A DNA stretch of 64,000 bases, from positions 7,737-71,736 of the forward strand of contig JBAYHW010000003.1 in NCBI GenBank assembly GCA_041665925.1. Reading direction: 5' to 3'. Every line of letters begins with the position of its first letter. Position 1 is the stretch's first letter. The notes under the pieces were generated by a model that saw only the letters and a list, made by a program, of their open reading frames with translations, was not told the DNA's origin and searched no databases. The translations under genes and the position numbers were made by a program. The DNA is from Minisyncoccota bacterium (GTDB lineage: Bacteria > Patescibacteriota > Minisyncoccia > Phycocordibacterales > UBA9973). Below are positions 56,027 to 59,614 of the stretch, piece after piece.

Positions 56027-56695
56027 CTACTTATGATGCTTAGTGTCTCGTATTACCTTTCCATTTTCCATAGTAATCACTCTTTTATTAATGGACTCTA
56101 TCACTCCACGATTGTGCGTCGTTAGAATTACTGTAGTACCAAGATCATTTATTTTCTTTAAAATTTGGACTATTTCGTGAGTGTTCACTGGGTCTAAGTT
56201 CCCTGTCGGCTCATCGGCAATTATAAGCTCGGGTTGATTGATGATAGCTCTCGCTATAGCCAAGCGCTGTTGCTCCCCGCCAGACATCTGTCCTGGAAAG
56301 TGTGTTGACCTGTGGCTTAAATCAACAAGTTCTAAGACATGAGGAACGTCGCTTCGGATTTCTTCTTCTGTTTTACCCACAGCTTCCATAGCGAAAGCTA
56401 TATTTTCATAAGCAGTTTTATTAGAAAGTAATTTGAAATCTTGGAAAACAACTCCAATGCGCCTACGTAATTTAGTTAGATCTTTGTTTTTTAATTTACT
56501 AACATTAATAGACTCGAAGAATACCGTTCCGTCCGAAGGATTTTCTTCTGCCATAATCATCCTGGTTAGAGTCGTTTTCCCTGCACCTGAATGCCCTACT
56601 ATGGAAACAAACTCCCCCCCCTCAATAGTAAAGGTAACATCTTCGAGAGCTGTCGCATCTCTATAAATTTTTGAAACATTATTAAAATAGATCAC
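56027..56695 (-). CDS. ftsE: cell division ATP-binding protein FtsE
   Basis: GHSGAGKTT Walker A, LSGGEQQR signature, Walker B IIADEPTGNLD. Confidence 0.9.
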   Translation of the reverse strand: MIYFNNVSKIYRDATALEDVTFTIEGGEFVSIVGHSGAGKTTLTRMIMAEENPSDGTVFFESINVSKLKNKDLTKLRRRIGVVFQDFKLLSNKTAYENIAFAMEAVGKTEEEIRSDVPHVLELVDLSHRSTHFPGQMSGGEQQRLAIARAIINQPELIIADEPTGNLDPVNTHEIVQILKKINDLGTTVILTTHNRGVIESINKRVITMENGKVIRDTKHHK

Positions 56696-56707
56696 TTTCT
56701 TATACTA

Positions 56708-57595
56708 TCATAAATCCCTCTCTGCTTCAATGAAAAGGTTCAATTCACCCCCTAAAACTGCATCGACATTCGATGTTTCTACTCCTGTCCTGTGGTCTTT
56801 AACCATTTTATATGGATGTAGCACATAAGACCGTATCTGACTCCCCCATTCTATTTCTGTATTCTTAGTAACTTGCATACTTTCTTCAACACTCTTCTTT
56901 TCTTCTTCGGCTTTTTTGAAAATCTTAGCGCGAAGAATGGATAGGGCCAATTCTCGATTTTGTTCCTGGGATCTTTCAGTAGAAACATGCACCGCAATAC
57001 TTGTAGGAACATGAACAATACGAACAGAAGTCTCTCTTTTGTTCACATTCTGGCCACCAGGTCCACTTGAACGAGCAAACTCTATTTTTAAATCGTCTGG
57101 TTTTAAAACAACATCTTTTTCTTCCATTTTGGAAAACTTGGGTAGAACTTCTACTAATGAAAAGGAGGTATGGCGAAGCTTTTTCGCATTAAATGGTGAG
57201 ATTCGAACCAGGCGATGTACTCCAGATTCATTTTTTAATTTTCCATACGCATTTTTCCCAGAAACTTCTACGGTGATAAACCGGTACCCCCCATGGTCAT
57301 TCTTGTGTTCGTTAACAAGAGACATGACCCATTTTTCATTTTTCGCATATTTGGCATACATTTGAAAAAGTATGGCAGAGAAGTCCTCCGCATCGTCTCC
57401 TCCCGCTCCCGAAATTATAGATACAATTGCATTACCTCTGTCGTATTTACCCAAGCCTTCTTTTTTAGACTTTAATTCTGCAAGTTCCTTAAGAATGCTT
57501 TGGGCCTTTATTTTGTCACTCCAAAAATCTGGGCTTTGTACCACGGTTTCTAGTTTGGCTATTTCGATTTCTACTTCATTGGTGTCATTTTTCAT
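56708..57595 (-). CDS. prfB: peptide chain release factor 2, encoded in a single frame
   Basis: SPF tripeptide motif (RISPFNAKK) and GGQ loop SGPGGQNVNK. The start was set at MKNDTN, which has an AGGGAAAG RBS. No programmed +1 site was found. Confidence 0.85.
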   Translation of the reverse strand: MKNDTNEVEIEIAKLETVVQSPDFWSDKIKAQSILKELAELKSKKEGLGKYDRGNAIVSIISGAGGDDAEDFSAILFQMYAKYAKNEKWVMSLVNEHKNDHGGYRFITVEVSGKNAYGKLKNESGVHRLVRISPFNAKKLRHTSFSLVEVLPKFSKMEEKDVVLKPDDLKIEFARSSGPGGQNVNKRETSVRIVHVPTSIAVHVSTERSQEQNRELALSILRAKIFKKAEEEKKSVEESMQVTKNTEIEWGSQIRSYVLHPYKMVKDHRTGVETSNVDAVLGGELNLFIEAERDL

Positions 57596-57664
57596 AAAAA
57601 ATACTTTCCCTGTGCACACAACTTACTTTATCAAAAATCACAGTTATTTGCTATACTTATAGAT

Positions 57665-58378
57665 ATGGAACTACACCGACAGATAAATAAAAATTATATA
57701 CACCACCAGAAATCTTCTATTGCTAATGTTTTGAAAGAAGTAGTTTTTGGAATAGAAGACGGGATGGTTTCGACTCTTGGCTCAATCACGGGTATCGCCA
57801 TTGGAAGCAACAATCACTCAATTGTTATTTTGGCAGGCATAGTAATTATCTCTGTAGAATCTATCTCTATGGGAATAGGATCTTATCTTTCGAATATTTC
57901 TCATGAGGAAATGAATAAAAGAAAAATTGAAGAGGAAAAAGAAGAATTGCGAGATTTCCCTGAAGAAGAAAAGGAGGAGTTATATCAAATGTATTTAGTA
58001 AACGGTTGGCCTAAGGACCTAGCTAGGGAAATGTCAGAAGCAGCTTCGAAAAATGAAACTCTAATCCTACAGGAAATGACCATGCATGAACTAAATATTC
58101 CTGGTGATCAGGAATCTATCTCAATAAAAGGAGGTGTTTTTATGTTTTTCTCATATATCCTTGGTGGGGTTATCCCACTGTTGCCATATTTCATTCTAAG
58201 CACTAAAGACGCCATAGCAACATCTATTGTAATTACCTTAATTGGGCTATTTGCCCTTGGGATGGGCACGGCAAAATTCACGAAGCAACCCCTATTAAAA
58301 GCGAGTTTCCGAGTACTTATTCTGGGTGGAATAGCGCTGGCTGTTGGACTTGTCGCAGGTATACTACTAGGACAATAA
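57665..58378 (+). CDS. VIT1/CCC1 family iron/manganese transporter
   Basis: VFGIEDGMVSTLGSITGIAIGS motif and 5 TM. Confidence 0.7.
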   Translation: MELHRQINKNYIHHQKSSIANVLKEVVFGIEDGMVSTLGSITGIAIGSNNHSIVILAGIVIISVESISMGIGSYLSNISHEEMNKRKIEEEKEELRDFPEEEKEELYQMYLVNGWPKDLAREMSEAASKNETLILQEMTMHELNIPGDQESISIKGGVFMFFSYILGGVIPLLPYFILSTKDAIATSIVITLIGLFALGMGTAKFTKQPLLKASFRVLILGGIALAVGLVAGILLGQ

Positions 58379-58446
58379 ATTTGAGCCGCTGGGATGACTT
58401 GCACATCCGACCCACGAATTACGAATTCGTTGCTCTACTACCTGAG

Positions 58447-58908
58447 CTACAGCGGCATATTTTTTGCTAACAAACGTCCTTCTTTAACTCTTTTACTTAG
58501 AGATCTATTTTGTCGACCATTCCCCCTATTAGATCCAGAATATGTTGGGGTCAGTGAATCACAGTTAGGGCAAATTAATCTTAAATTATTTTCCACATTG
58601 TTTCTCCAATTACCATCAACATGATCGGCAACAAGTGGAACCAATCCAGTTTTTTTATTAACTTCTGACCATCCACATAAGCAACATTTATTACCGTACT
58701 TTTCACGTAAATAAATTTTTACAGAAGTAGAAACAATACCTAAGCTTTGTAGTCCGTTTACTTTGCCTTCCTTCCATTTTTTTAAATAACGATCACGCTG
58801 GTAAGCAATTTGACATTTATTACTACAATATTTATACCTAGCTCGCGCTGTTTCTTTTTTACACTTTAAACACTTTTCTCGAATCATCTTAGGTAATGAC
58901 ATAATCAT
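58447..58908 (-). CDS. HNH endonuclease (free-standing, candidate homing endonuclease)
   Basis: CCLCGW...ADHVDGNWRNNVENNLRLICPNCD HNH motif plus N-terminal CxxC pairs. Confidence 0.8.
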   Translation of the reverse strand: MIMSLPKMIREKCLKCKKETARARYKYCSNKCQIAYQRDRYLKKWKEGKVNGLQSLGIVSTSVKIYLREKYGNKCCLCGWSEVNKKTGLVPLVADHVDGNWRNNVENNLRLICPNCDSLTPTYSGSNRGNGRQNRSLSKRVKEGRLLAKNMPL

Positions 58909-58974
58909 ATTGTATTAACTAATACTACCACTGTCAAATTTAAAAGTGGTTGCAAATTCCAATATTCGTTCTCT

Positions 58975-59239
58975 TTGATTGCTGAGCCGTTGATCGGGAT
59001 TGAACCGATGACCTCGTCATTCGTTTACACCCCTATTTCACCACATCGGCTTATAAGAGGACTAGACTGTATCTTACGCATACCTTTCGGTGTAGCGTCC
59101 CTTGTCAGTCGTTCGGGCGAAATTTCTTTCGCCACGGTCTTGTCCTTTACAGGATATTAACCGTAATTCGGGATTCACAAACAAGTTTCCCTGCAAGTGG
59201 GCTATTAACGATAACCAATGACGTGCTCTACCAACTGAG
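58975..59239 (-). tRNA. tRNA-Thr (anticodon GGU) interrupted by a group I intron of about 192 nt at anticodon loop position 36/37. The intron spans about 59012-59203.
   Basis: 5-prime exon gccgttgtagctcagttggtagagcacgtcattggt. 3-prime exon aatgacgaggtcatcggttcaatcccgatcaacggct. The acceptor is perfectly paired and the anticodon stem cgtca/tgacg is restored on splicing. The intron has an R-like element cgaacgactgacaag and an S-like element gtaagatacagtctagtcc. The 5-prime exon ends in U and the intron ends in G. Confidence 0.6.
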
Positions 59240-59614
59240 CTACAACGGCAAAACGACTTTTCGACCTACCAAAACAGCTACAACGGCAACACTCAATCAT
59301 ACTAGTGCATTTTTACTTATTTTGCAAAAACCTTTACCTGATATATAAATAATTTACTTATTAAGTTCTTTCTCTGCTTGGTTGGCTAAGTCAATGATGA
59401 CACCTATTTCTTCCATCGTCAGTTTTTAGGCTTTGTATCTAAAATAACCAACCTATTAACTGCTTCAATTCTTTTTTCTTCATCTACCCCCGTTGGCGCA
59501 TTTTGCATCAATTAATAATACAATTTTTAATTGCGTCTGTAAATAAAAACACACAGAGGTTATCCCCATTTAACTTGAAAAGAGTTTTTAATTCAAGCGA
59601 GGAACTGCGGTTCA

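What the first reader, a model, noticed from the sequence alone, without database searches (positions are those of the whole stretch)
58447..59290. Group I intron in tRNA-Thr(GGU) with an adjacent free-standing HNH endonuclease
The minus-strand tRNA is split after anticodon position 36 by an intervening sequence of about 192 nt. The 5-prime exon ends in U and the intron ends in G. The intron carries recognisable group I elements: R-like cgaACGACUgAcAAg and S-like AAGAUAcAGUCuAGUCC, a P7 pairing GACUG/CAGUC, and a GGGAAAC loop. Exon joining restores a perfect cloverleaf. The HNH endonuclease gene starts 67 nt downstream of the tRNA. This fits the collaborative-homing model, in which an intron lacking its own endonuclease mobilises with a neighbouring free-standing one. 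tRNA-Thr is not one of the classic bacterial intron hosts (Leu, fMet, Ile, Arg). A duplicated first 12 nt of the tRNA lies 29 nt upstream.
Basis: partly seen in the sequence, partly recalled or inferred. Interest (0 to 1): 0.65.

Follow-up and report, generated by a model that had tools for sequence, protein, structure and literature searches.

The report
Known-type tRNA-Thr group I intron
The split tRNA-Thr(GGU) gene is real and carries a small self-splicing-type (group I) intron of a family already described in Patescibacteria, while the neighbouring HNH nuclease gene is a separate resident of the tRNA-Thr locus and not the intron's homing partner.

Summary
On the minus strand a tRNA-Thr(GGU) gene (59249-58985) is split after anticodon base 36 by 192 nt (59213-59022). 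The 5' exon ends in U and the insert ends in G. Joining the exons gives a perfect cloverleaf.

The insert belongs to a large family. At least 119 GTDB species representatives, nearly all Patescibacteria, carry a homologue, at tRNA-Thr(GGU) 36/37 wherever the site could be read (111 loci). A P1-P9 group I fold is strongly supported by covariation: 92.5% of cells paired versus 30-44% in slid controls, and 35 pairs with compensatory changes.

Rfam RF00028 misses it. That is a published false negative for these "divergent group I introns" (Castelle 2018; Nakagawa 2026, PMC13011429). The kind is therefore already known.

Collaborative homing is not supported:
- Close HNH homologues are always followed by tRNA-Thr(CGU), and the tRNA-Thr(GGU) upstream of them is usually intronless.
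- Some of those intronless alleles have an exon junction identical to this one.
- Only about 12% of intron-bearing loci have the HNH.
- The closest HNH relatives lack the intron, and the closest readable intron relatives lack the HNH.

The upstream "duplicate" is a recurring tRNA-Thr leader motif that also occurs at intronless genes.

The parts
59214..59249 (-). tRNA-Thr(GGU) exon 1 (positions 1-36, ends U36)
   Evidence: the same split is present in 111 homologues
59022..59213 (-). ORF-less group I intron, 192 nt, terminal G at 59022
   Evidence: MFE fold; alignment A1 and covariation; family covariance model 195.7 bits; leave-out profile E = 7.5e-46
58985..59021 (-). tRNA-Thr(GGU) exon 2 (positions 37-73)
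59200..59216 (-). P1: GGU|UAU paired with AUAGCC. U36.G wobble at the 5' splice site; internal guide GCC.
   Evidence: the G-C, G-C and U.G pairs are invariant in 64 of 64 sequences and the intron-side pairs covary (helix 1)
59176..59199 (-). P2 hairpin with GAAA tetraloop
   Evidence: all 8 pairs show compensatory changes (helix 2)
59134..59164 (-). P4 (ACGGU/ACCGU) enclosing P5 with a GUAA loop
   Evidence: P4 is invariant; 3 of 4 P5 pairs covary (helices 4 and 5)
59116..59133 (-). P6 hairpin GGCGAAA/UUUCGCC with GAAA loop
   Evidence: 6 of 7 pairs show compensatory changes, for example GG..CC to CC..GG
59065..59110 (-). Catalytic core: P7 5' strand GACUG, J7/3 ACAA, P3' GGG, P8 hairpin, J8/7 UAAGAUA, P7 3' strand CAGUC. 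P3 5' strand is CCC at 59170-59172.
   Evidence: this stretch aligns to RF00028-positive phage and giant-virus introns
59030..59060 (-). P9 (CCUCU/AGGGG) with an inner hairpin
   Evidence: all 5 pairs covary (helix 10)
59263..59287 (-). tRNA-Thr 5'-half mimic in the leader (GCCGTTGTAGCTGTTTTGGTAGGTC)
   Evidence: It recurs upstream of tRNA-Thr(GGU) and tRNA-Thr(CGU) genes with or without an intron, and is not part of the intron.
58447..58908 (-). Free-standing HNH nuclease ORF (151 aa from the ATG at 58902). A separate element, not part of the intron.
   Evidence: PHROG HNH families down to E = 5e-18; motif residues invariant; fold matches only to HNH nucleases; more than 1600 homologues, the named ones from Patescibacteria
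58909..58937 (-). Promoter-like site TTGACA-17-TACAAT abutting the HNH start codon
   Evidence: conserved in L009, L010 and L157
58383..58456 (-). tRNA-Thr(CGU). Its positions 8-10 (UAG) serve as the HNH stop codon.

Best explanation
The 192-nt insert is an ORF-less group I ribozyme intron. It belongs to the 'divergent' family that occupies position 36/37 of tRNA-Thr(GGU) in Patescibacteria.

Inferred mechanism:
1. The precursor folds so that exon bases G34, G35 and U36 pair with the internal guide GCC (P1), with a U.G wobble at the cleavage site.
2. An external guanosine bound at P7 attacks after U36.
3. The terminal G (59022) then takes the same site, and the freed 3' OH of U36 attacks after it.
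4. This joins U36 to A37 and restores the anticodon loop UUGGUAA.

The exons, the helices and their conservation are shown here. Catalysis is inferred.

The adjacent HNH gene is a separate element that lives between tRNA-Thr(GGU) and tRNA-Thr(CGU) in many Patescibacteria, usually without the intron. It probably moves on its own. Its presence beside the intron here reflects a shared tRNA-Thr locus, not a homing partnership.
For: Intron identity:
- Exon joining gives a perfect tRNA-Thr(GGU).
- 111 of 120 GTDB pattern hits were validated as the same split, with U before and G at the end of every insert and 111 different insert sequences. Eight of the nine remaining hits are also family members by covariance model.
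- The P1-P9 fold with the P3/P7 pseudoknot: 92.5% of cells paired versus 30-44% when partners are slid; 35 of 52 pairs with changes on both sides; covariation score 0.437 versus at most 0.109; 0 of 500 shuffles reach the observed values.
- The family model also matches RF00028-positive phage introns end to end (for example L015, L016, L027, L033) at E = 5e-8 to 7e-5, and L018 and L020, which are cut by the contig end, at E = 4e-4 to 8e-3.
- A family member in viral contig L051 interrupts a 1528-aa tape-measure ORF. Removing its 194 nt, which is not a multiple of 3, restores the reading frame.
- The literature describes the same thing: tRNA-Thr(GGU) 36/37 introns in Patescibacteria, missed by RF00028 and mis-called Arg(GCG) 34/35 by ARAGORN (PMC13011429). 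reproduces that mis-call.

Independence of the HNH gene:
- intronless tRNA-Thr(GGU) lies upstream of most HNH copies.
- an HNH is present at 11 of 95 intron loci.
- the closest readable intron relatives, L111 and L149, have no HNH. The HNH relatives at 83-89% identity have no intron.
- intronless alleles next to an HNH have identical junctions.
Against: No Rfam Intron_gpI hit even at E <= 10 on a 236-nt slice. P3 is only 3 bp. P4 and P7 are invariant, so they give no covariation; P7 is invariant because of how the homologues were found. Splicing of this Thr family has not been shown experimentally in what I could read; Nakagawa et al. tested only Asn and Asp introns.

On independence: 4 of 15 HNH loci with an upstream tRNA-Thr(GGU) carry the intron, against 3 of 95 complete genomes in the literature. 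A distant HNH homologue also follows a tRNA-Thr(UGU) with another group I intron (L200 and L201). Some enrichment, uncorrected for phylogeny, is therefore possible.
Confidence: 0.85

Rival explanations
1. Collaborative (trans) homing. The HNH enzyme cuts intronless tRNA-Thr(GGU) at or near the 36/37 insertion site. Repair from this locus copies the intron, and often the HNH gene 113 nt away, into the recipient. The intron protects its own genome by splitting the target.
For: The intron and an intact HNH gene are about 110 nt apart. The HNH family is tied to tRNA-Thr genes of all three anticodons. The intron is present at 4 of 15 HNH loci with an upstream tRNA-Thr(GGU), against about 3% of complete Patescibacteria genomes (PMC13011429). 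L200 and L201 pair a distant HNH homologue with a different group I intron at tRNA-Thr(UGU) 36/37. HNH similarity disagrees with PrfB and FtsE similarity, which suggests the HNH gene moves.
Against: Most HNH copies sit next to an intronless tRNA-Thr(GGU). L184 carries the exact 25-nt junction of this window's spliced tRNA, and L173's anticodon-arm junction matches that of intron-bearing alleles such as L192 and L194. An enzyme with that target would cut its own chromosome. Of the intron loci, 84 of 95 have no HNH nearby. Intron and HNH relationships are discordant.
Confidence: 0.07
2. The HNH gene is not selfish. It is a vertically inherited, selected component of the tRNA-Thr operon in Patescibacteria, with an unknown cellular nuclease role, and has nothing to do with the intron.
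For: Very high conservation: 65-89% identity across more than 1600 clusters. All Zn-binding and catalytic residues are invariant. Position and synteny with prfB and ftsE are fixed. The reading frame ends in the tRNA in 27 of 38 loci. The gene has its own consensus promoter.
Against: The gene is present or absent between the same two tRNAs; spacers of only 11-29 nt occur in some genomes. Its identity is discordant with neighbouring housekeeping genes: 85-89% HNH identity with 57-60% PrfB identity, versus 70% HNH with 73% PrfB. Its best family matches are phage HNH endonucleases.
Confidence: 0.25
3. The locus is a broken tRNA gene: two fragments separated by unrelated DNA, or another kind of insertion such as a group II intron, an archaeal-type intron or an IS element.
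For: Standard tRNA and Rfam scans report nothing here.
Against: The same interruption, at the same phosphodiester bond, with a conserved and covarying fold, is kept in more than 110 species. The insert has no ORF and no repeats, and it matches a group I core.
Confidence: 0.01

Closest known systems
'Divergent group I introns' in tRNA-Thr(GGU), position 36/37, of Patescibacteria/CPR (Castelle et al. 2018 Nat Rev Microbiol, as cited in Nakagawa et al. 2026 mSystems, PMC13011429)
   Same: Same phylum, same tRNA, same insertion site. Similar length (the paper reports 184-894 nt for tRNA introns overall). No ORF. Missed by RF00028. Mis-called Arg(GCG) 34/35 by ARAGORN.
   Different: Nothing essential. 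The paper lists three cases in 95 complete genomes. The scan here finds at least 119 species representatives and adds a covariation test. The paper does not discuss neighbouring free-standing nuclease genes.
Classic bacterial tRNA group I introns: Azoarcus tRNA-Ile, Agrobacterium tRNA-Arg, cyanobacterial tRNA-Leu(UAA) and tRNA-fMet (Reinhold-Hurek & Shub 1992 and others, as cited in PMC13011429)
   Same: Small, ORF-less, in the anticodon loop. P1 is formed with anticodon bases. GNRA loops on P2, P5 and P6. 36/37 is also the tRNA-Arg site.
   Different: Those are subgroup IC3 and are found by RF00028. Nakagawa et al. place the Patescibacteria Thr introns on a long branch with IA introns. I did not classify the subgroup myself.
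Collaborative or trans homing in phages: the free-standing endonuclease and ORF-less psbA intron of cyanophage S-PM2, and T4 mobE with I-TevIII (reviewed in PMC3984707; PMC2790892)
   Same: [quoted passage not shown]
   Different: The defining feature, endonuclease target equal to intron insertion site, is contradicted here by HNH genes lying next to intronless alleles with identical junctions. This is a cellular genome, not a phage.
Free-standing HNH homing endonucleases in phage tRNA gene clusters (T5 F-Tfl enzymes; recalled from memory, not checked here)
   Same: A small HNH gene wedged between tRNA genes. Distant homologues of this HNH sit in dense tRNA clusters (L203, L206).
   Different: No cleavage data exist for the Patescibacteria protein. 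It is fixed upstream of tRNA-Thr(CGU).

Membership tests
Group I intron | The 5' exon ends in U, which forms a U.G wobble with the internal guide in P1 | tested here: met
   U36.G in 64 of 64 aligned sequences (columns 8/27); 111 of 111 exons end in UGGU
Group I intron | The intron ends in G (omega G) | tested here: met
   111 of 111, while the two preceding bases vary
Group I intron | Conserved helices P3-P9 with the P3/P7 pseudoknot and the P4-P6 domain | tested here: met
   P2, P5, P6, P8 and P9 covary. P3 (3 bp) has one pair with a compensatory C-G to U-A change in 2 sequences and wobble changes in the other two pairs. P4 and P7 are invariant and therefore uninformative.
Group I intron | Match to the curated covariance model Rfam RF00028 | tested here: not met
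   No hit at E <= 10, although the model works on control introns. This is a published false negative for the family. The reciprocal test is positive: the family model R1 matches RF00028-positive introns.
Group I intron | Guanosine-dependent self-splicing | not testable with these tools
   Indirect support only: the family member in L051 must be removed exactly to restore a 1528-aa ORF.
Patescibacteria tRNA-Thr(GGU) 36/37 intron family | Same host gene and site, with sequence homology to other members | tested here: met
   Leave-out profile E = 7.5e-46; model R1 195.7 bits; invariant core blocks
Collaborative homing pair | The endonuclease target site coincides with the intron insertion site, so intronless alleles are cut | tested here: not met
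   Indirect test: intronless alleles with identical junctions sit next to intact HNH genes. The enzymatic test was not possible.
Collaborative homing pair | Intron and endonuclease gene co-occur and are inherited together | tested here: inconclusive
   11 of 95 intron loci have an HNH. 4 of 15 HNH loci have the intron. Nearest relatives are discordant. No phylogenetically corrected base rate is available.
HNH (beta-beta-alpha-Me) nuclease | CxxC...(D/E)H...N...N...CxxC(H/D) motif and fold | tested here: met
   Invariant C73, C76, H94, N101/N102, N106, C111 and C114. PHROG HNH families down to E = 5e-18. The AlphaFold model (pLDDT 84) matches only HNH nucleases, and weakly (E about 5e-3). Pfam HNH_3 is below its cutoff (14.5 versus 24.8 bits).

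The most novel reading that the evidence does not exclude
The HNH protein is a free-standing homing endonuclease that recognises tRNA-Thr genes. Group I introns at position 36/37 of tRNA-Thr(GGU), and of tRNA-Thr(UGU) in L200, persist partly because they shield the gene from it. That would be the first case of collaborative homing, or of intron-as-immunity, in cellular genomes rather than phages. The apparent counter-examples would then have to be explained by resistant variants or by tight control of expression, for example through the stop codon that lies inside the downstream tRNA.
Probability: 0.07. Interest if true: 0.55.

Novelty: already known. Interest (0 to 1): 0.2.

Why it matters
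The practical value is mainly for annotation. Default tRNA finders and Rfam both miss this gene, so a genome would wrongly appear to lack tRNA-Thr(GGU). The family is also much more common than the three published complete-genome cases suggest: at least 119 species representatives carry it. The idea that would have been most interesting, an intron and nuclease homing partnership in a cellular genome, is not supported. The HNH gene tied to tRNA-Thr(CGU) and the tRNA-Thr leader mimic are small open questions of their own.

Tried and rejected
- Rfam at gathering threshold and at E <= 10, on 1.1 kb and then on 236 nt: no group I hit. Kept as a recorded failure and explained by the literature.
- Exact look-up of the window's HNH protein: not on record.
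- First DNA pattern, with an N{30,60} gap: it did not match the window's own 29-nt spacing and returned only canonical phage and giant-virus introns. Those were reused as a positive control.
- My first two exon-finding scripts picked the upstream leader mimic, or odd ARAGORN variants, for some loci. The window was then set by hand.
- PDB sequence search with the HNH protein: nothing at E <= 1. The fold search gave only generic HNH matches.
- Castelle et al. 2018 could not be read. It is cited only through Nakagawa et al.
- The upstream copy as a homing or integration scar: rejected because the motif recurs at intronless tRNA-Thr genes.
- A programmed frameshift in prfB: no sign of one.
No proper 2x2 association test was therefore possible.

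Full report
**What is in the sequence**

Read on the minus strand, 59249-59214 is the 5' half of a tRNA: acceptor GCCGUUG, D arm, and anticodon stem CGUCA followed by UUGGU. The 3' half is 59021-58985: AA, then UGACG, the variable loop, the T arm, CAACGGC and discriminator U. Between them lie 192 nt.

ARAGORN folds the joined exons as a perfect tRNA-Thr(GGU). Default ARAGORN and Rfam report only the tRNA-Thr(CGU) at 58456-58383 and a tRNA-Gln elsewhere in the window.

With introns allowed, ARAGORN proposes a 35/36 split that reads as Pro(GGG). The 36/37 split is the only one that puts U before the 5' splice site and G at the end of the insert. It is also the only one that gives a single anticodon across all homologues.

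The context is a small AT-rich cellular genome with pyrG, ftsX, ftsE and prfB. The HNH homologues that carry a source name, and nearly all related loci, come from Patescibacteria.

**Is the insert a group I intron?**

Rfam RF00028 gives no match, even at E <= 10 on a 236-nt slice. The same model scores 60-87 bits on phage and giant-virus introns fetched as controls.

The evidence from folding and from homologues is nevertheless strong.

- The minimum-energy fold on its own yields P1 (GGU|UAU with AUAGCC), P2 with a GAAA loop, P4-P5 with a GUAA loop, P6 with a GAAA loop, P7 (GACUG/CAGUC), P8 with a GAAA loop, and P9. The z-score is -3.9.
Nearly all are Patescibacteria.
- In 111 of these loci I could define the exons. 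Every one is tRNA-Thr(GGU) split at 36/37, with U before the insert and G at its end. The inserts are 158-266 nt long and all 111 sequences differ.
- ARAGORN's calls of Arg(GCG), His(GUG), Leu(GAG) and Pro(GGG) for many of these loci are boundary shifts of one or two bases.
- Eight of the nine remaining loci are family members by covariance model.

On a 64-sequence alignment (A1, median identity about 66%) I counted pairs for the P1-P9 structure with P3 as a pseudoknot:

| Measure | This structure | Partners slid by 1-3 columns |
|---|---|---|
| Cells forming a standard pair | 92.5% | 30-44% |
| Pairs (of 52) with changes on both sides | 35 | 15-27 |
| Covariation score | 0.437 | at most 0.109 |

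None of 500 shuffles reached the observed values. P4 and P7 never vary, so they say nothing either way; P7 was fixed by my search pattern. P3 is only 3 bp.

Three further results link the family to canonical group I introns.

- A model built from this family matches RF00028-positive introns, end to end where the contig allows, at E about 5e-8 to 8e-3 (L015, L016, L018, L020, L027, L033).
- It also matches the unrelated-looking tRNA-Thr(UGU) intron of L200.
- A full-length family member in viral contig L051 interrupts a tape-measure gene. Removing exactly 194 nt restores a 1528-aa reading frame.

I take the group I assignment as established at the comparative level. Catalysis itself is inferred.

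**Comparison with the literature**

Nakagawa et al. 2026 (PMC13011429) list tRNA-Thr(GGU) 36/37 introns in three complete Patescibacteria genomes. They call them 'divergent group I introns', citing Castelle et al. 2018. They state that RF00028 does not detect these introns and show ARAGORN mis-calling them as Arg(GCG) 34/35. They place them on a long branch with subgroup IA introns.

That is the object in this window. Their splicing assays covered Asn and Asp introns, not Thr. The kind is therefore known. What my scan adds is scale (at least 119 species) and a covariation test.

**The HNH gene**

The ORF 58908-58447 has a Zn-ribbon N-terminus and a complete HNH motif. C73, C76, H94, N101/N102, N106, C111 and C114 are invariant across close and distant homologues. 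It matches phage HNH families down to E = 5e-18. The predicted fold matches only HNH nucleases, and weakly.

More than 1600 homologue clusters were found, and the 120 best-scoring ones are 67-89% identical to the query.

Its position is fixed.

- In all 28 close homologues from metagenomes, and in all protein-database loci with a readable 3' flank, it is followed directly by tRNA-Thr(CGU).
- In 27 of 38 such loci, as here, the stop codon is U8-A9-G10 of that tRNA.
- A consensus promoter, TTGACA-17-TACAAT, abuts the start codon, which suggests a leaderless transcript that runs into the tRNA.

**Does the HNH partner with the intron?**

The defining feature of collaborative homing is that the nuclease's target is the intron insertion site (PMC3984707). 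The evidence against this here is as follows.

1. The tRNA-Thr(GGU) upstream of the HNH gene is intronless in 11 of 15 metagenome loci and in all three lineages reached through the protein database. These include the HNH copies most similar to this one, at 83-89% identity.
2. L184 has an intronless allele whose 25 nt around the junction are identical to this window's spliced junction. L173's anticodon-arm junction matches that of intron-bearing alleles such as L192 and L194. A nuclease with that target would cut its own genome.
3. Among intron-bearing loci with at least 700 nt of downstream sequence, only 11 of 95 have an HNH within reach. Seven loci in all have one directly downstream.
4. The closest intron relatives whose downstream sequence could be read (L111 and L149) have no HNH. 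The closest of all, L167, is cut by the contig end, so its HNH status is unknown.

The evidence on the other side should also be stated.

- 4 of 15 is higher than the roughly 3% of complete genomes that carry the intron in the literature.
- A distant HNH homologue follows a tRNA-Thr(UGU) with another group I intron (L200 and L201).
- HNH similarity is discordant with PrfB and FtsE similarity in the same loci: 85-89% HNH with 57-60% PrfB, against 70% HNH with 73% PrfB. This suggests that the HNH gene itself moves horizontally.

I could not correct any of these figures for phylogeny. My reading is that two separable elements share a tRNA-Thr hot spot. I give collaborative homing about 7%.

**The upstream duplicate**

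The 12-nt copy is real, and similarity to the tRNA extends to about 25 nt (59287-59263). The same motif consists of the cognate acceptor 5' strand followed by GTAGCTGTYTTGGTAGGTA.

It lies upstream of tRNA-Thr(GGU) in L056, L076, L136, L163 and L168. It also lies upstream of an intronless tRNA-Thr(GGU) in L186 and L187. Two tandem copies precede tRNA-Thr(CGU) in L056. It is a leader element of tRNA-Thr genes in some lineages, not a footprint of intron homing. Its function is unknown.

**Verdict**

The homing partnership is not supported, and the kind of element is already published. Interest is low. The remaining value lies in annotation and in two side observations: the HNH gene tied to tRNA-Thr(CGU), and the tRNA-Thr leader mimic.

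Noticed in passing
window 58447-58456 (minus strand); also L001-L013, L173-L188, L190: The HNH ORF ends in a stop codon formed by positions 8-10 (UAG) of the downstream tRNA-Thr(CGU), in 27 of 38 loci. No terminator lies between them. 5' processing of the tRNA would therefore remove the stop codon from the HNH message, which could limit expression.
   Followed up: partly
window 58909-58937 (minus strand): A near-consensus promoter, TTGACA-17-TACAAT, abuts the HNH start codon. It is conserved in relatives L009, L010 and L157, which suggests a leaderless HNH mRNA that also serves as the tRNA-Thr(CGU) precursor.
   Followed up: partly
window 59263-59287 (minus strand); L056 3238-3263 and 4158-4240; L076, L136, L163, L168, L186, L187: A tRNA-Thr 5'-half mimic lies in the leader: the acceptor 5' strand, matching the cognate tRNA, followed by GTAGCTGTYTTGGTAGGTA. 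It occurs upstream of tRNA-Thr(GGU) and tRNA-Thr(CGU) genes with or without an intron. Function unknown.
   Followed up: partly
L001, L007, L009, L010 and L173 compared with window 56027-58908: HNH amino-acid identity is discordant with that of the neighbouring PrfB and FtsE. For example, HNH 85-89% with PrfB 57-60%, against HNH 70% with PrfB 73%. This suggests horizontal movement of the HNH gene between Patescibacteria lineages into the same tRNA-Thr site.
   Followed up: partly
L051 5926-6119 (IMG/VR contig): A 194-nt member of the same intron family interrupts a 1528-aa phage tape-measure / lytic transglycosylase gene. Exact removal restores the reading frame, so the family is not confined to tRNA genes or to cellular genomes.
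   Followed up: yes
L200 and L201, 1131-1437 and 1501-1884: A tRNA-Thr(UGU) carries a different 231-nt group I intron at 36/37. It is followed directly by a distant homologue (49-51% identity) of the HNH protein.
   Followed up: partly
L163 6366-6680: A tRNA-Asp(GUC) with a 240-nt insert lies in the same contig as a tRNA-Thr(GGU) intron. It is likely one of the 35/36 Asp introns described by Nakagawa et al.
   Followed up: no
L059 (Pedobacter sp. MAG), L101 (Niastella populi); 'Gammaproteobacteria' MAGs L086, L091, L093, L104, L115, L117: Members of the tRNA-Thr(GGU) intron family occur in records labelled as non-Patescibacteria. Niastella populi is an isolate genome. This means either real spread beyond the phylum or mis-binned contigs.
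   Followed up: no
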